From: a virus
Direction: 5' to 3' (one strand)
DNA: 37,165 nt
Virus genome (UHGV): UHGV-0093680
Both the position numbers and the translations under genes were made by a program. This document shows, in pieces, positions 31,410 through 36,576 of this stretch. How positions within the stretch are numbered: the stretch's first letter is position 1; every line of letters starts with the position of its first letter. The notes beneath the pieces were generated by a model. That model searched no databases. It was given only the letters and a program-made list of their open reading frames with translations, and was not told the DNA's origin.

Positions 31410-33541
31410 TGAAAGTAACTGCAAACGGTAAGACATTTACCTTCCCTGATGGTACGAGCACGGAAGATATTGGCACCGCCATTGATGAGTATTTTGCTGG
31501 TCAGGCTGTTCAGCAACAAACAGTTAATCAGGCCAATAATGAACCAGCACGTGAAGAACCATCATTGATGCAACAAGCTGGCGATTGGCTCACAGGTGGT
31601 CAAAGTGCAGGACAAATTGCAGAGCAGGCTGGTCGTGGTCTGGTAAACATACCATTTGACGTATTGCAGGGTGGCGCAAGTCTGATTAATGCAATCAGCC
31701 AGGGGCTTGGTGGACCCAAGGTTTTGGATGATGTTTATCGTCCAGTAGACAGACCGACAGACCCCTACGCGCAAGCCGGTGAAACAATTGGTGGGTATCT
31801 CCTGCCAATTGGCACAGCGGCAAAAGCTGCTGGAGCGCCAGCAAAGCTCGCTGGAGATATCGGTTCCGCAGGAAACATGATTGCAGGTTCTCTTGCTGAT
31901 GCTGCAAATCAGGAGGGCGACTTTGCACAAAATGCTGCCATTAACGGTGGTATCAATATTGGTGCTCAGGGGATACTTTCTGGGGCTGGAAGGATCTTAA
32001 CCTCTAAATCACCTCAAGTTCTTGGTGGCGGGGCAATAAATTCCGCTGCTGATGTTTCGAAAATGGCAAAGTCTGGTACAGGAAGAGAGATTATTGCCAG
32101 ACAGTCAGCTAATGTGTCAGACGAAATAGCAAAAGCAGCAGATACTGCTGGAATAGATATCAACGCATTAACTCCTGGCATGAGATCAGGTAGTCGTGGT
32201 CTTGCTCAGGCGGAGGGGATTCTGGCGTCAAAGCCCGGAATTACACAGGATGCACACACCAAAGCATTCAGTGAAATAGAGTTGAAATTTAACTCAGCAT
32301 TGGATGAGTTTGGGGCTGAAGCAGGAACTGCATCAGAAAAAAGTGCAGCCATAAAACAAAGGGTTTTGGCAAGTATTGATAAAATGAAAAATTCAGAAAA
32401 GGCCGCATGGGATAGCGTCCGCTCCACGATGCCTGACGCAAAGGCCAGAATGTCAAACCTGAACGCTACAATTCAGGGTGATATTTTGGCTGGTATGCCG
32501 CTAACTCCTGAGATGAAACAATTTGCATCTGCTTATGCTAAAACTGGTAAAAAAGGAATCACGTTTGATGCCATGAAGGCATGGCGAAGTAAACTTGCTG
32601 ACGCAGAGCAGAAGTATATAAGGTCTGGTGAGGCAAATACGGCAAGGCGCATGGCGGAGCTTCGTGATGCAGCAACGGAAGATATGCGCATAATGGCTCA
32701 AAATGGCGGTTTTCTTGATGACTGGCAAAAAGCTAATGATCTGTCAAAAGCAAGATTTACAGCACAAGAACAGGCTGAAGCAGCGTTTGGTAGAGACCTT
32801 GCAACTGATCAGTTGGTAACTAATGGTTCTAAGGCGTTACAGGGTTCAGCAAAAAGTGGAACAGGTCAGTTCCATAAAATAATAAGCGCCCTACCTGAGC
32901 CGGAACGCGCGCCAGCAATTGCATCAATATTACAAGATGCAATGTCGCAAGGGGTACGCGGAGGTAAGTCTGAAGAGGCTGGAATTAAGCATATCGCGAC
33001 TATTCTTACCCCACAAAACGTGAAGGCAATTAGTCGATATTCTCCAGAACTTGGCAGGATTACAAGTTCATACGGAGAACTTGCACGAGCAGCAACAAAG
33101 CCACTTCGATATGTTGAACAGACAGGGCGATCTATGCCAGCCATTAGCACTCTTGAGAATGGCCTTCATCCAGTTTTAGAGAGCGCATTGTCTGGCGCTT
33201 TTAGAACTACTGGCACTATCGCAGGGTTATCTGGAGGAGGCGTTATTGGAGCAATAGCGGGTGGCGCTGCAGGTGGGGCAATTGATGCAATGGCAAAAGG
33301 AGCGATAGCGAAATTATCCGCAACTAGAAGCGGTCGTTACGCTATTGAAAAGGCTGTTCAAGAGGCAACAAAGGCAGTTAAGGTTGGGGCAAGTGATGGC
33401 GCATTAGCGGCGGCGGAACGCAGATTTATGGCAAATAAGGCCGCCGTAAAAGCAATACGCGAGGCACTAGGAAACGAAGAGTTCCAGCGTTTAGCAAGAG
33501 CTGGAATTGTGGCATCGCTAAGCGGAATGGCACAGGAGTAA
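31406..33541 (+). CDS. Ejection protein (P22 gp16-like)
   Basis: 711 aa, Ala/Gly-rich; last gene of the virion operon, as for P22 gp16 (which is shorter, about 609 aa). Confidence 0.55.
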
Positions 33542-33946
33542 TTAGTCATCCATGGATGGATTGAGCTTATCTCGTGTTGATGTGGCAATTTTCCCAACAT
33601 TTTTCAACCAAGATTTTAAGAAGGATATGTCGTCCTTAATATCATGAATATCCTCATTCTTTATACGATCAACCTTATCCTCTAAGCTCTCTATAGAACG
33701 CTCAATGCTAGACAGAGAGATTTTTAAGTCCCCTTGCTCACGTTCCAGTGAGGATTTGAGAGCACAATATTCGTTTTCTAGAATTCCTATTTTTTTTGTT
33801 AGAGAGTGCATTCGATACTCATACACCAAACCAGAAACGACTAATGCAGCCAACAGAAACCATTCAAGCACACCAACCTCCTTAGTTTTGCTCAGGATAC
33901 CAGATGATAATGTGTAGTTGGAGTAGCGCGGTTGTAATGCAAGCAT
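33542..33946 (-). CDS. Unknown single-pass membrane coiled-coil protein (134 aa) at the sieA-equivalent position
   Basis: Hydrophobic helix LEWFLLAALVVSGLVYEY followed by a heptad-rich region; AT-rich; stop codon back-to-back with the gp16-like stop; no SD at the first ATG. Confidence 0.5.
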   Translation of the reverse strand: MLALQPRYSNYTLSSGILSKTKEVGVLEWFLLAALVVSGLVYEYRMHSLTKKIGILENEYCALKSSLEREQGDLKISLSSIERSIESLEDKVDRIKNEDIHDIKDDISFLKSWLKNVGKIATSTRDKLNPSMDD

Positions 33947-34028
33947 TTTGTTTTGGTTTTATGCTTGCTTGTATGTGTGTACAGTGTATATAATGCAAGC
34001 ATACATCACAATAAAGGTGCTTGCATTA
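33934..34028. promoter_or_regulatory. Divergent promoter region with four ATGCAAGCAT / ATGCTTGCAT operator-like repeats
   Basis: Four copies in alternating orientation within about 95 bp, with a TATAAT hexamer at about 33989-33994 on the plus strand. Confidence 0.55.
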
Positions 34029-35020
34029 TGACTGAAAAGAAAAGTGGCGAAGGGAAAGCTAAGGGCGGTATCGCTCGCGCAAAGTCGCTGACTAAAGAGC
34101 AGCGTTCTGAAATAGCAAAGAAAGCAGCGGCTGCAAGATGGAAGGATAAACCATTAATTGCTACGCATAAGGGATCGTTCCAGCATGAATTCGGGATTGA
34201 TGTTGAGTGCTATGTGTTAAATGATGATAACAAAACTGCCGTTATTAGCCAGAGAGGCATGGGAGAAGCGATTGGTCTTGGCGAAGGTGGCAGCAGGTTG
34301 CCAAAGTTTATTCAGGGGAAAACTATTTCTCAGTATATCGGGCATGAATTAAGGGCAAAACTTGAAAATCCTCTTATTTTTCAATACAAACAGGCGGGCA
34401 CGAACACTCCAGCTAATCCTGTAATACATGGCTACGATGTAACAATATTAATTGATTTATGTCGAGCAATCTCTAATGCTAAAGCTGAAGGTAAGTTGCT
34501 TTCCAGTCAGGAAGGGATTGCTAAGCAAGCCAGAATCATTATTGATGCATCAGCCAAGGCGGGCATTCAGGGGCTTGTTTATGCTTTGGCAGGGTATGAC
34601 AGAACAAAAGAAGAGGTAATTCAAGCATATAAGCGATATGTTGCTGAAGAGGCTCGTGAGTATGAAAGAGAGTTCACCCCTGAACTTTATGAGCATTGGT
34701 ATCGTCTGTATGGTATAGACAAACCAGTTAGAGGGCGACCATGGGCGTTTAAATATCTTACGATAGATCACATTTATTACCCATTAGCCAGAAGTGAAGG
34801 AAAGGTATTTAATTTAGCAAAAACGTCAAAAGAAGAAAAAGGCAGCAAAAACGATAAAATACACCAGTTTTTATCAGAGGTTGGAGTTAAGGCTCTTAGA
34901 ACCCAAATAGGTAAGGTTACTGGTATTGCAATGGTTTCTGATACTCGAGAAGAGTATGAGAAATACATAGATGAAAAGGTTATTGGACAAAGAACCATAG
35001 ACTTAAAAGATAAAGAATAA
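34028..35020 (+). CDS. P63C-domain protein (330 aa)
   Basis: In-frame ATG within ORF 33953..35020; segment GSFQHEFGIDVECYVLNDDNKTAVISQRGMGEAIGL resembles the P63C domain as recalled; Lys-rich N-terminus. Confidence 0.55.
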   Translation: MTEKKSGEGKAKGGIARAKSLTKEQRSEIAKKAAAARWKDKPLIATHKGSFQHEFGIDVECYVLNDDNKTAVISQRGMGEAIGLGEGGSRLPKFIQGKTISQYIGHELRAKLENPLIFQYKQAGTNTPANPVIHGYDVTILIDLCRAISNAKAEGKLLSSQEGIAKQARIIIDASAKAGIQGLVYALAGYDRTKEEVIQAYKRYVAEEAREYEREFTPELYEHWYRLYGIDKPVRGRPWAFKYLTIDHIYYPLARSEGKVFNLAKTSKEEKGSKNDKIHQFLSEVGVKALRTQIGKVTGIAMVSDTREEYEKYIDEKVIGQRTIDLKDKE

Positions 35021-35026
35021 GAAAAT

Positions 35027-35050
35027 CCCACCGTCAGGTGGGTTTTTTAT
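35027..35050 (+). terminator. Rho-independent terminator after the P63C gene
   Basis: Hairpin CCCACC-GTCA-GGTGGG followed by TTTTTTAT. Confidence 0.8.
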
Positions 35051-35061
35051 AAGGAGTAATC

Positions 35062-35247
35062 ATGACCATAGAAGAACGTCTGAACAACATTGAGTTGAAT
35101 CAAACCCTGCTTGACCAGCGACTTTCAGATCTTGAGCTTAAAGATCTAGATGTGCAAATATCAGAAGCAGAAGCCAAGCTCTCCAGCTTAAACCACCGCA
35201 GGAAGCAAATCCGCGACAGAATTACTCGTGGACGCGGAGGCTGTTAA
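35062..35247 (+). CDS. Hypothetical small coiled-coil protein (61 aa)
   Basis: ATG 6 nt after AAGGAG; heptad-like sequence. Confidence 0.45.
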   Translation: MTIEERLNNIELNQTLLDQRLSDLELKDLDVQISEAEAKLSSLNHRRKQIRDRITRGRGGC

Positions 35248-35324
35248 GGTGTGATGGTAATCCTTGCTCACTAAATTTAAGGATGCGAATCTTTCCGGCC
35301 ATAGGAGTAATCATGATTTACCCA

Positions 35325-35861
35325 TCAAACAACCCACCAGTTTGCCTGATTGGATACCAGCCTTGCAGTTTTTATGGAATTAATTATGCCATGCTCAAGA
35401 GCCTTGTTAGCATCCAAAATGGTCGAGTCTGCTATCAGGGATGCCCACCTAATATGGGTTCCGATGTCGATATTGAACGTCTCAACGAAGCGATCAAGAT
35501 CGTTATCGAGGCATTTCCCGTACTCTCTCAATCTGGCATGGTCGGCGGCTGGGGAGGCAAAGCACCATAATAGAGGATGTAACAGGAATCTTGATAATGG
35601 GTTTGCGAAACGTTCTGAGCCAGCCAGGAAAACGATATTAGCTATGGATTCAACATTGCTTATGTTGTGAGTTCTAACGGTAACAGGGAGTGACTTAAGA
35701 AAGTTATACGCAGTAAAGCCAGCGGCAGTTTCCCCTCCCTGACTTGATATATGGATATTTAATTCAGTTGCGCCTTGAGATAATGCGGTGAGACAGTGGT
35801 TCTGAAGTTGCCCAACAGTGGCAGTGTTAACGGGGCATAAGAAATGAATTGTGTGCAGCAT
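35325..35861 (-). CDS. ClpP-like serine peptidase (178 aa)
   Basis: ClpP/S14-like topology: oxyanion-hole-like HISSQGGETAAG, candidate Ser in NVESIAN, His in LLHPLL, Asp in DNDLDRF; start overlaps the mnt-like stop. Confidence 0.55.
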   Translation of the reverse strand: MLHTIHFLCPVNTATVGQLQNHCLTALSQGATELNIHISSQGGETAAGFTAYNFLKSLPVTVRTHNISNVESIANIVFLAGSERFANPLSRFLLHPLLWCFASPAADHARLREYGKCLDNDLDRFVETFNIDIGTHIRWASLIADSTILDANKALEHGIINSIKTARLVSNQANWWVV

Positions 35862-36109
35862 TATTTTTCATCCTTACCATACATGGTCTTTAGCGTCTCA
35901 AGCAGCGCCTCTTTGAATTTGTCAGCTTCTTGCTGAGCAAATGACTCAACTGACTTTGGCGACCTATCTTCATCAATCGCGGCTTGCAAAATCATGACGA
36001 TCTCGGAGTTAACAGAGCGACCATTTTTTGATGCTCTGACAGCAAGAGCCTCGCGTAAAGATTCAGGGATTCTTACCGTAGTTGGAGAAATTGACACACC
36101 CTTTGCCAT
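35861..36109 (-). CDS. mnt: Mnt-like ribbon-helix-helix repressor
   Basis: In-frame ATG within ORF 35861..36151; RHH N-terminus …RIPESLREALAVRASKNGRSVNSEIVMILQAAI… resembles P22 Mnt as recalled. Confidence 0.65.
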   Translation of the reverse strand: MAKGVSISPTTVRIPESLREALAVRASKNGRSVNSEIVMILQAAIDEDRSPKSVESFAQQEADKFKEALLETLKTMYGKDEK

Positions 36110-36223
36110 ATCACACCTTTGGTATTCAATTTGATAGCAAAGTGTATGCAAAAAAATTTTGACTAGATATACTCACTTTGATATCTTTTGTATTCGAAAA
36201 GAGTTGTTTGTGTGGAGGGTAAC
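36110..36223. promoter_or_regulatory. Divergent Pmnt / Pant-like promoter-operator region
   Basis: Plus-strand TTGACT - 17 nt - TATCTT overlapping the inverted repeat AGATAT-N10-ATATCT, between the divergent mnt-like and arc-like genes. Confidence 0.45.
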
Positions 36224-36376
36224 ATGGAGAAAGAAATAAGTAAGATTTTGGTAAGGATGCCGCAGTCGTTAAAGGATGCTATAGGTAGCAGGGCAAAGGA
36301 AGAGTGCAGGTCGTTTAACTCAGAGGTTATCAAGCGCCTGATAGACAGCTTGAAGAGAGAGGGGGTAATGGTATGA
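36224..36376 (+). CDS. arc: Arc-like ribbon-helix-helix repressor
   Basis: In-frame ATG within ORF 36188..36376, 5 nt after GGAGGG; MEKEISKILVRMPQSLKDAIGSRAKEECRSFNSEVIKRLIDSLKREG resembles P22 Arc as recalled. Confidence 0.7.
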   Translation: MEKEISKILVRMPQSLKDAIGSRAKEECRSFNSEVIKRLIDSLKREGVMV

Positions 36377-36576
36377 GTAAAGAATGTTGTTTCTGCGGCA
36401 TTAGCGAATCAGACGCTGATCAAACATACATTTACTCTAAAGAAACAGGTCGGATGCTGTGTAGTGACTGCGTGTTGGACATCATAAGATACAAGCATCT
36501 TGGATGTTCTGCCAGCATTAGCAATATAGGTGAAGTATATGAAGGGAAAGATATAACTGATAGATCAGAAAGTTGA
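36373..36576 (+). CDS. Small Cys-rich (zinc-ribbon-like) protein (67 aa)
   Basis: CFCG…CSDC pattern; ATGA overlap with the arc-like stop. Confidence 0.45.

What the first reader, a model, noticed from the sequence alone, without database searches (positions are those of the whole stretch)
33542..35250. AT-rich divergent gene pair (membrane coiled-coil protein and P63C-domain protein) with a four-copy operator array between the virion operon and immI
Directly after the last ejection-protein gene lies a low-GC block. It has a minus-strand 134-aa single-pass membrane / coiled-coil protein at the P22 sieA position and a plus-strand 330-aa P63C-like protein followed by a 61-aa coiled-coil ORF. Their shared upstream region carries four copies of ATGCAAGCAT / ATGCTTGCAT in alternating orientation around a consensus -10, which looks like a dedicated repressor-controlled switch. 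The composition and position are typical of horizontally acquired lysogen-expressed morons, with superinfection exclusion as a candidate function.
Basis: partly seen in the sequence, partly recalled or inferred. Interest (0 to 1): 0.55.

Follow-up and report, generated by a model that had tools for sequence, protein, structure and literature searches.

The report
Self-regulating P63C gene cassette in prophage
The four short repeats are real and belong to one gene only: they form a promoter-and-operator unit that travels with P63C-family genes through phages and an IS1-type transposon in many bacterial phyla. The gene's own product most likely uses them to switch itself off.

Summary
The block is the lowest-GC stretch of the window. 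The four 10-mers (two exact, two with one mismatch) lie within 90 bp, around a perfect TATAAT.

The interpretation needs revision. The array is not a shared switch for a divergent gene pair. It belongs to a 1.1-kb cargo cassette (33903-35026: control region plus P63C ORF) that fills a variable slot of the P22-type "ant moron".

The minus-strand gene is the backbone gene hkcB. It is 109 aa, not 134, and is not a SieA homologue.

The same four-box layout precedes P63C genes in Proteobacteria, Acidobacteria, Firmicutes and other phyla. Box 2 carries the -35, box 3 abuts the -10, and box 4 sits between the ribosome-binding site and ATG. All 57 IMG/VR contigs with the box pattern carry a P63C gene beside it.

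The boxes co-vary with a 30-residue basic N-terminal motif of the protein. In the window only P63C carries this motif.

In about half of the genomic loci the cassette lies inside an IS1-family transposon with perfect terminal repeats and 8-bp target duplications.

Best reading: negative autoregulation by P63C through its N-terminal motif. The effector role is untested; prophage exclusion or defence is a candidate.

The parts
33542..33871 (-). hkcB homologue. 109 aa, with an N-terminal transmembrane helix followed by a coiled coil. It is a backbone gene, not part of the cassette.
   Evidence: phrog_5962 aligns to residues 26-134 of the long ORF. PGAP calls a 330-nt CDS. It is 98% identical to HK620 hkcB. 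It gives no alignment to P22 SieA.
33872..33902 (-). Backbone 5' region of hkcB, with SD AAGGAGG at 33877-33883 on the minus strand. Similarity to the hkcC-type backbone ends at 33902.
   Evidence: blastn junctions against L094 and HK620; sequence read.
33903..35026 (+). P63C cargo cassette: control region plus ORF. It is present or absent between isogenic prophages.
   Evidence: L094 is 99.7% identical up to 33902 and again from 35027. The left flank is identical in a Salmonella prophage whose neighbour is sieA.
33937..33946 (+). Box O1 (ATGCAAGCAT, exact). In the transposon versions it also supplies the -35 of the leftward transposase promoter.
33961..33970 (-). Box O2 (ATGCTTGCTT on the + strand, 1 mismatch). 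It contains the -35 hexamer TTGCTT at 33965-33970; the family consensus is TTGCAT.
33989..33994 (+). -10 hexamer TATAAT, 18 bp after the -35. Its last bases are the first bases of box O3. The inferred transcription start is about 34001.
   Evidence: Sequence read. The family-wide TAnnnT element abutting box 3 occurs in 40 of 50 arrays, with a 17-18 bp spacer.
33993..34002 (+). Box O3 (ATGCAAGCAT, exact), covering the end of the -10 through +1.
34017..34026 (-). Box O4 (GTGCTTGCAT on the + strand, 1 mismatch in the 10-mer; the 8-mer core is exact). It fills the gap between the SD (AAGGT, 34014-34018) and the ATG at 34028.
34028..35020 (+). P63C-family protein, 330 aa. Layout: basic two-helix N-terminal motif (residues 8-39, nt 34049-34144); beta-rich winged-helix/Bro-N-like domain (residues 43-137); helical region; Pfam P63C domain (residues 202-289, nt 34631-34894).
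   Evidence: Pfam. AlphaFold model with mean pLDDT 75. Weak fold matches to DNA-binding domains. Motif analysis.
35027..35042 (.). Bidirectional intrinsic terminator shared with the backbone.
   Evidence: shared with L094 and L095; HK620 annotates a bidirectional terminator in this region.
35062..35247 (+). Independent 61-aa gene (phrog_7586) with its own strong SD. It lies in a separate indel, 35066-35302.

Best explanation
Bases 33903-35026 are an autonomous, horizontally mobile cassette: a sigma-70 promoter, four 8-10 bp boxes and the P63C gene. It sits in the variable 'ant moron' slot of a P22-like prophage.

Mechanism: the P63C protein binds its own boxes, most likely through its basic N-terminal two-helix motif (GKAKGGIARAKSLTKEQRSEIAKKAAAARW).
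- O2 covers the -35 and O3 covers the -10 and the transcription start, so occupancy shuts off transcription.
- O4 lies between the ribosome-binding site and the ATG, and O1 lies upstream. Both probably add cooperative binding.

The result is negative autoregulation. It holds the protein at a fixed low level in the lysogen, independently of the phage's C2, Mnt and Arc repressors and of the host species.

Shown: the anatomy, the conservation, the exclusive association with P63C, and the co-variation with the N-terminal motif.
Inferred: the binding, its sign (repression) and the transcription start.

The rest of the protein (a winged-helix/Bro-N-like domain and the P63C domain) should carry the effector function. 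That function is unknown. A lysogen-expressed exclusion or defence role acting on DNA is the leading candidate.
For: 1. Conservation.
- 49 loci from other genera and phyla pass a strict four-box filter, with the order + - + - and spacings of 22-25, 31-32 and 23-25 bp.
- The boxes carry about 2 bits per position; the spacers carry 0.3 bits or less.
- The protein itself is only 51-68% identical across these loci.

2. Promoter geometry is conserved.
- Box 2 plus one base gives TTGCAT or TTGCAA in 45 of 50 arrays.
- A TAnnnT element ends on the first base of box 3 in 40 of 50.
- An SD-like element sits directly before box 4 in 44 of 50.
- Box 4 abuts the ATG.

3. Exclusivity.
- All 57 IMG/VR contigs with the three-box pattern have a P63C homologue beside it, including relatives at 28-36% identity.
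- Boxes are absent from the rest of the window.
- They are rare elsewhere in the transposons: 79 in arrays against 5 outside.

4. No other conserved partner.
- Cassettes without a transposase or the small protein keep all four boxes while their spacers diverge. This holds in Enterobacter, Serratia, Morganella, Salmonella, Klebsiella, Xenorhabdus, Mixta and phage ST104.
- In the window only P63C carries the motif.

5. Co-variation with the N-terminal motif.
- In distant relatives that keep the boxes, the motif is 47-72% identical, against 19-35% and 21-32% for the other domains.
- The three loci and the Streptococcus homologue that lack the motif have no boxes.
- An Acidobacteria clade with an altered N-terminus has altered boxes.
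- E. coli alleles that are 53-54% identical overall share the first 39 residues and the array exactly.

6. Sequence, not pairing, is selected: 23 of 26 variant positions break the inverted-repeat pairing and only one is compensated.

7. Fold matches, though weak, are all to DNA-binding domains.
Against: - No binding, footprint, transcript start or expression data exist; everything is comparative.
- The N-terminal motif has no Pfam, NCBIfam or PDB relative, so its DNA-binding role is inferred only.
- Part of the conservation of boxes 1 and 2 is explained by their role as -35 elements.
- In the window the -35 is weak (3 of 6) and the spacer is 18 bp, and the consensus promoter scan did not report it.
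- The shared N-terminus of the E. coli alleles could simply mark a recombination breakpoint.
Confidence: 0.6

Rival explanations
1. The inverted boxes act mainly at the RNA level. Transcripts entering from outside, such as late-operon read-through, fold O3 against O4 and bury the start codon. Only transcripts started at the cassette's own promoter are then translated. This would insulate the gene from foreign transcription, as described for IS10 and IS50 (own knowledge).
For: RNA 33985-34045 folds to -17.5 kcal/mol (z = -4.7) and pairs the AUG. RNA from the inferred start at 34001 is unstructured (-2.1 kcal/mol). The opposite orientation of O3 and O4 is conserved, and O4 always abuts the ATG.
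Against: 13 of 14 variant positions in O3/O4 break the pairing and none is compensated. The sequence is invariant rather than covarying. O1 and O2 have no such role. No Rfam family matches. This could still be a side benefit of protein operators.
Confidence: 0.15
2. One reading: one repressor-controlled switch shared by the divergent hkcB and P63C genes, both being lysogen-expressed morons.
For: The two genes diverge from a 156-bp gap. In the transposon relatives box 1 does serve as the -35 of a leftward promoter, with (C/T)ATAAT 17 nt further on.
Against: In the window the position of that leftward -10 reads AACTAC (2 of 6). The array and its left flank travel with P63C next to sieA, cI, tail genes or a transposase. 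hkcB occurs without the array in HK620 and L094. The cassette junction lies at 33902/33903, between hkcB and the array.
Confidence: 0.12
3. The boxes are bound by some other regulator: a host factor, phage C2/Mnt/Arc, the IS1-type transposase, or the small 'histone H1'-like protein that shares the motif.
For: In 22 transposon loci a roughly 80-aa protein carries the same motif and could bind the same boxes. The transposase has an N-terminal HTH.
Against: The window encodes neither protein. 55 of 57 viral arrays lack the transposase. Conservation from Firmicutes to Acidobacteria argues against a host factor. The immI operator region around 36160-36190 is unrelated in sequence.
Confidence: 0.08
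4. The array is a set of iterons (an origin or partition-like site) and P63C is an initiator-like DNA-binding protein.
Against: The boxes coincide exactly with the -35, the -10 and the SD-ATG gap. The cassette sits inside prophages and transposons, which have no need for an origin. The fold scores are weak. The boxes are 8-10 bp in alternating orientation, unlike iterons.
Confidence: 0.04

Closest known systems
The 'ant moron' / sieA-immI region of P22-like phages (PMC2629481; SieA: PMC10883804)
   Same: The position is the same, between gene 16 and mnt-arc-ant. The content is mosaic and variable, lysogen-expressed accessory genes are found there, and true sieA sits next to the same P63C cassette in a Salmonella prophage.
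   Different: hkcB is not a SieA. It has one predicted transmembrane helix, lacks the FxRYPxEAxxFNK motif, gives no Pfam SIEA hit and gives no BLASTP alignment. P63C is cytoplasmic and predicted to bind DNA.
BstA abortive-infection protein with its aba DNA element (PMC8585504)
   Same: Both are prophage accessory proteins of about 300 aa with a KilA-N/Bro-N-type DNA-binding region. Both have a short repeat-bearing DNA element overlapping the gene's own start. A P63C homologue in ST104 occupies the same cI-to-gene-24 slot as bstA.
   Different: There is no sequence relationship: the PADLOC library gave no match at E up to 0.1. aba elements are allele-specific, whereas the P63C boxes are nearly universal. 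The boxes coincide with promoter elements, which points to regulation. No defence phenotype is known.
Controller (C) proteins and C-boxes of restriction-modification systems (own knowledge)
   Same: Both are portable autoregulatory circuits: a small set of conserved boxes upstream of the regulator's own gene that move with the cassette between unrelated hosts.
   Different: C proteins are about 80-aa HTH dimers that activate and then repress.
MetJ/Arc-type arrays of short palindromic boxes (own knowledge)
   Same: Both use 8-bp near-palindromic boxes repeated two to five times across a promoter, with cooperative occupancy.
   Different: The predicted reader is a helix-turn-helix-like hairpin, not a ribbon-helix-helix. 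The box spacing is 22-32 bp rather than tandem.
IS1-family insertion sequences and passenger-carrying IS (own knowledge)
   Same: In related loci the cassette lies inside elements with an IS1-like DDE transposase, ends of the GGnnnTG type and 8-bp target duplications.
   Different: The window has no transposase, no terminal repeats and no small passenger gene. IS1 regulates itself through InsA at its ends, whereas these elements have an internal divergent control region.

Membership tests
Pfam P63C (PF10546) | HMM score above the gathering threshold | tested here: met
   35.9 bits against 26.1, residues 202-289. All 130 aligned homologues hit the model.
P22 SieA family (tested for the minus-strand protein) | Sequence similarity to SieA types A-C or a Pfam SIEA hit | tested here: not met
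   BLASTP gives no alignment at E up to 100. No SIEA family appears in the Pfam scan, whereas a true SieA in L096 hits PF26849.
P22 SieA family (tested for the minus-strand protein) | Several transmembrane helices and the cytoplasmic motif FxRYPxEAxxFNK (PMC10883804) | tested here: not met
   The sequence shows one hydrophobic stretch (LEWFLLAALVVSGLVY) followed by a coiled coil, and no RYP motif.
Moron (autonomous accessory unit in a phage operon; own knowledge of the definition) | Own promoter and terminator, presence/absence between related phages, deviant composition | tested here: met
   A conserved promoter geometry is predicted and a terminator follows. The cassette is absent from the isogenic L094. 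GC is 0.40 against 0.50. Promoter activity itself was not measured.
BstA defence family | Match to the BstA model | tested here: not met
   PADLOC-DB gave no match at E up to 0.1. That this library holds a BstA model rests on my own knowledge.
BstA defence family | Abortive-infection phenotype and a cognate self-immunity DNA element | not testable with these tools
   Only the architecture is analogous.
Bro-N / KilA-N DNA-binding domain | Sequence-profile match | tested here: not met
   Residues 1-160 gave no Pfam hit at E up to 1, and none of the 130 homologues hit these families.
Bro-N / KilA-N DNA-binding domain | Fold similarity | tested here: inconclusive
IS1-family transposon | DDE transposase with an IS1 signature, terminal inverted repeats, 8-9 bp target duplication | tested here: not met
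   The window has no transposase and no repeat at 2 mismatches or fewer. In related loci the features are met. DDE_Tnp_IS1 scores 25.5 against 24.1 bits, and NCBIfam transpos_IS1 gives E 6e-17, below its cut-off. The ends read GGTAGTGnnTCAGTTTGAA. 22 of 22 elements have perfect 8-bp duplications.
Autoregulated repressor-operator module | Operators overlapping the regulator's own promoter and co-evolving with the regulator | tested here: met
   Overlap with the -35, the -10 and +1. Co-variation with the N-terminal motif.
Autoregulated repressor-operator module | Demonstrated binding and repression | not testable with these tools
   Needs EMSA or footprinting and reporter assays.

The most novel reading that the evidence does not exclude
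P63C is a DNA-directed exclusion or abortive-infection protein carried by prophages and by a pan-bacterial IS1-type transposon. Its 30-residue N-terminal motif would then be an undescribed sequence-specific DNA reader. Its four-box array would serve both as a host-independent autoregulatory switch and as a self-recognition (aba-like) site that spares the element carrying it.
Probability: 0.15. Interest if true: 0.85.

Novelty: new variant of a known kind. Interest (0 to 1): 0.65.

Why it matters
A 90-bp promoter/operator is kept almost base for base at its boxes from Firmicutes to Acidobacteria, while the gene behind it drifts to 30-50% identity. That is unusual. It defines a portable, host-independent control unit.

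It gives a concrete, testable function (autoregulation through TGCAAGCA boxes) to part of the uncharacterised P63C family. That family has more than 2,700 relatives, all annotated as hypothetical.

It points to a short basic motif as a candidate new DNA-binding module. The same motif occurs in thousands of small proteins mislabelled "histone H1".

It also uncovers an IS1-family transposon whose constant passenger is this cassette. That explains the cross-phylum spread and links phage morons with transposon cargo.

For phage biology, it adds a new recurrent occupant of two classical lysogen-expressed hot spots: the sieA/immI slot and the cI-N slot.

Tried and rejected
- Known-family assignment. 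PADLOC, NCBIfam and PDB sequence searches of P63C, hkcB and the small ORFs gave nothing usable.
- Rfam on the region gave only spurious miRNA-hairpin hits far below threshold.
- Literature. Searches for the P63C domain, IS1 passengers and hkcB found no functional study. The paper that defined the domain is not held.
- Remnant of the transposase promoter. I suspected that the window's left flank (33896-33937) is a decayed transposase promoter or start codon. Identity to transposon loci is 37% against 33% for random segments, so this is not demonstrable. Which came first, phage cassette or transposon, stays open.
- RNA-structure reading. Tested by counting compensatory changes and largely rejected.
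- Homology of hkcB to SieA: rejected.
- First AlphaFold model (28 sequences, mean pLDDT 59): too poor in the C-terminal half. It was redone with 130 sequences (mean pLDDT 75).
- The afdb50 fold library was unavailable.
- The generic promoter scan missed the promoter. The promoter call rests on family-wide geometry instead.
Full report
**1. What is in the window**

The window is most of a P22-like (Lederbergvirus) E. coli prophage. The last ejection-protein gene (gene 16 homologue) ends at 33541. A mnt-arc-ant immunity I region starts at about 35861.

The flagged block is the lowest-GC 1.7-kb stretch of the whole window. Its GC is 0.405, against a mean of 0.474 (sd 0.033). The virion operon is 0.501.

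The four repeats are real.
- ATGCAAGCAT is exact at 33937 and 33993.
- Its reverse complement occurs with one mismatch at 33961 and 34017.
- The window as a whole has about the chance number of such 10-mers (7 against 5.4 expected). Four within 90 bp is not chance.
- The only three exact 8-mer cores in 37 kb are in the array.
- A perfect TATAAT at 33989-33994 overlaps box 3.

**2. Corrections to the gene calls**

The minus-strand ORF can be read as 134 aa, but the gene is 109 aa (33542-33871). It starts at a GTG five bases after AAGGAGG. phrog_5962 covers only residues 26-134, and RefSeq annotates the 330-nt version.

It is hkcB of phage HK620 (98% identical). Relatives occur only in phages 611R6, epsilon34, CUS-3 and SEN22.

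It has one N-terminal hydrophobic helix and a coiled coil. It shows no alignment to P22 SieA. It also lacks the multi-helix topology and the FxRYPxEAxxFNK motif that define SieA types A-C. It occupies the sieA position but is not a SieA.

The 61-aa ORF (phrog_7586) has its own strong ribosome-binding site. A terminator separates it from P63C, and it lies in an independent indel, 35066-35302.

**3. The array belongs to a cassette, not to a gene pair**

A prophage that is 99.7% identical on both sides (L094) carries hkcC and a small ORF instead. Similarity stops at 33902 and resumes at 35027, at a shared bidirectional terminator. Another prophage carries a Panacea-domain gene in the same slot. 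The cargo unit is therefore 33903-35026: 125 bp of control region plus the P63C ORF.

The array and even its left flank are identical in a Salmonella prophage where the divergent neighbour is a true sieA.

The same cassette is found in many other settings:
- in a prophage with a different tail module, and in one without hkcB;
- at the end of a P2-like prophage, and inside Mu-like tail genes;
- beside a lambdoid repressor;
- after tail-fibre genes;
- directly downstream of cI in phage ST104.

In several of these it has an upstream and a downstream terminator. HK620 has hkcB without the array. This region of P22-like phages is already known as the mosaic "ant moron" (PMC2629481).

**4. Conservation of the array**

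The P63C protein has 2,766 relatives at E up to 1e-5. The genome collection gave 80 loci from many groups at 51-68% identity. They include Beta-, Alpha-, Gamma- and Deltaproteobacteria, Acidobacteria, Firmicutes, Abditibacteria, Verrucomicrobia and Chloroflexi.

In 49 of them a strict filter finds the same four boxes in the same order (+ - + -). The 8-mer starts lie near -86, -62, -31 and -7 from the ATG. The boxes carry close to 2 bits per position. The spacers carry 0.3 bits or less.

The geometry is that of a promoter.
- Box 2 plus the next base reads TTGCAT or TTGCAA in 45 of 50 arrays.
- A TAnnnT hexamer ends on the first base of box 3 in 40 of 50, with a 17- or 18-bp spacer.
- An SD-like element directly precedes box 4 in 44 of 50.
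- Box 4 abuts the start codon.

In the window the elements are TTGCTT (33965-33970), an 18-bp spacer and TATAAT (33989-33994). The inferred start is about 34001, the SD is at 34014-34018 and the ATG at 34028.

A scan of IMG/VR for three exact boxes at the right spacing found 57 contigs. All 57 have a P63C homologue next to the array, including relatives of only 28-36% identity.

**5. Who reads the boxes**

No other gene travels with the array in the phage cassettes, and host factors cannot explain conservation across phyla.

The part of the protein that tracks the boxes is a basic N-terminal motif (residues 8-39, predicted as two helices).
- In distant relatives that keep the boxes, the motif is 47-72% identical to the window protein. 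The beta-rich domain is 19-35% identical and the P63C domain 21-32%.
- Three genomic loci and a Streptococcus satellite homologue that lack the motif have no boxes.
- The lowest-scoring motifs belong mostly to an Acidobacteria clade with a distinct N-terminus. That clade has a different inverted repeat (TATACTTGCyCGrG) around its -35.
- A Gordonia phage homologue with the motif has AGCAAGCA-type boxes.
- Three E. coli alleles that are only 53-54% identical overall share the first 39 residues and the array exactly.
- A six-frame search of the window finds the motif only in P63C.

The motif has no Pfam, NCBIfam or PDB relative.

The rest of the protein gives only weak fold matches, but all are to DNA-binding domains: DdrC winged helix, a baculovirus Orf22 N-domain, Dachshund, DnaD, and many Bro-N or "repressor domain" viral proteins. 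No sequence profile for Bro-N or KilA-N matches.

**6. RNA or DNA?**

The boxes form inverted pairs. A read-through RNA would fold O3 onto O4 and bury the AUG (-17.5 kcal/mol, z = -4.7). An RNA started at about 34001 is unstructured. This could insulate the gene from outside transcription.

However, among variant positions in the box pairs 23 of 26 break the pairing and only one is compensated. Selection therefore acts on sequence, as expected for protein recognition. I keep the RNA effect as a possible side benefit only.

**7. The transposon**

In 39 of the genomic loci the P63C gene diverges, across the array, from a roughly 290-aa IS1-like DDE transposase. Pfam DDE_Tnp_IS1 scores 25.5 against 24.1 bits. 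NCBIfam transpos_IS1 gives E 6e-17, below its cut-off.

In 22 loci a convergent roughly 80-aa protein follows. Its C-terminus carries the same motif as the P63C N-terminus. That small family has at least 7,989 relatives, some labelled "histone H1".

Twenty-four loci show both terminal inverted repeats (GGTAGTGnnTCAGTTTGAA). All 22 whose flanks can be read have perfect 8-bp target duplications. The elements are 2.3-4.7 kb and carry variable extra cargo.

There box 1, read on the other strand, supplies the -35 (TTGCAT) of the transposase promoter. A (C/T)ATAAT lies 17 nt further on. The same boxes should therefore control both genes.

The window has no transposase, no terminal repeat and no small protein, and only 2 of 57 viral arrays have the transposase. 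Box 1 is nevertheless kept in all these transposase-less cassettes. This argues that it works as an operator and not only as a promoter element.

I could not show that the window's left flank is a decayed transposase promoter (37% against 33% identity). The direction of descent is open.

**8. Mechanism and function**

The best-supported mechanism is negative autoregulation. P63C, probably through its N-terminal motif, occupies O2 and O3 to exclude RNA polymerase, with O1 and O4 adding cooperativity. The anatomy and co-variation are shown; the binding, its sign and the transcript start are inferred.

The effector function is unknown. The hints are:
- placement in two classical lysogen-expressed hot spots, the sieA/immI slot and the cI-to-gene-24 slot, where bstA and rexAB also lie;
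- strong divergence of the middle domain between alleles;
- an architectural parallel with BstA, a KilA-N-type prophage defence protein whose 63-bp aba DNA element overlaps its own start.

Against membership in the BstA family: there is no sequence match, and the boxes are universal rather than allele-specific.

**9. Novelty**

I found no paper on the function of P63C proteins, on these boxes or on this transposon. All 36 cultured-phage homologues are annotated as hypothetical or merely as P63C-domain proteins.

The kinds are known: a moron, an autoregulated repressor-operator unit, a passenger-carrying IS. This family, its box, the candidate DNA-reading motif and the phage-transposon link appear undescribed. 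ISfinder could not be consulted.

Noticed in passing
window 35325-35861 (-) and 35861-36109 (-): A 178-aa ClpP-like protein gene (PF00574, E 2e-11) starts where the mnt-like gene stops. A protease therefore appears to be co-transcribed with Mnt in the immunity I region. It is conserved in several E. coli prophages (L001, L094, L095).
   Followed up: partly
window 35283-35570 (+) against 35325-35861 (-): An 85-95-aa ORF matching phrog_7758 (E 2e-61) overlaps the ClpP-like gene on the opposite strand. Two database families claim the same DNA, so one is probably an annotation artefact.
   Followed up: no
window 35066-35302: The 61-aa gene (phrog_7586) sits in its own indel. That indel is absent from otherwise 99.6-99.8% identical prophages (L001, L094) and present in Kapi1- and Emek-type phages.
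   Followed up: partly
window 36373-36576 (+): A 67-aa cysteine-rich ORF (phrog_7150) lies between arc and ant. It has no Pfam family.
   Followed up: no
L011, L013, L024, L028, L031, L054, L079 and others (full elements): An IS1-family transposon of 2.3-4.7 kb. It has terminal repeats GGTAGTGnnTCAGTTTGAA and perfect 8-bp target duplications (22 of 22). The constant core is transposase, four-box array and P63C; a small basic protein is usually present. Extra cargo includes a DNA methyltransferase (L024) and, judged from the sequences alone, a PemK/MazF-like protein (L023) and a retropepsin-like protein (L085).
   Followed up: partly
L011:4969-5208 (-) and equivalents in 22 loci: A roughly 80-aa protein has a C-terminus (GGxKGGxARAxxLTxEERxEIAKKAAxARW) that repeats the P63C N-terminal motif. 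The family has at least 7,989 relatives and no Pfam model. NCBI labels some members 'histone H1'.
   Followed up: partly
L026, L029, L033, L035, L039, L041, L049, L055, L060, L072 (upstream 120 bp): An Acidobacteria clade of P63C genes has a different operator: TATACTTGCyCGrG inverted repeats flanking a TTGACT -35, plus an inner GAAGTCAAGA repeat. It also has a longer N-terminus resembling the small protein.
   Followed up: partly
L021, L028, L040, L045, L052, L079 (left of box 1): The transposase ATG lies about 7 nt after its predicted -10, which suggests a leaderless mRNA. Other loci (L011, L016, L038) instead have an extra inverted repeat, CTCAAGCAT..ATGCTTGAG, before an SD.
   Followed up: no
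L004, L005, L006, L007 against the window 34028-35020: E. coli prophages carry at least three P63C alleles that are 53-54% identical overall. Their first 39 codons and upstream array are identical, and the middle domain (residues 45-180) diverges most. The window's allele is closer to transposon-borne genes of other phyla (up to 68%) than to the other E. coli alleles.
   Followed up: partly
L157:2417-3496 (phage ST104 orf23): The annotated start of ST104 ORF23 is over-extended. The four boxes and the conserved N-terminus place the start at the ATG that opens MSDKESKEPTGKSKGG (locus 2450; the boxes are read). The gene lies directly downstream of cI, the slot used by bstA in BTP1.
   Followed up: partly
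L095:2340-2789: In one E. coli prophage a Panacea-domain (DUF4065) gene occupies the same cargo slot between hkcB and the ClpP-like gene. This is consistent with the slot collecting toxin-antitoxin or defence-type cargo.
   Followed up: no
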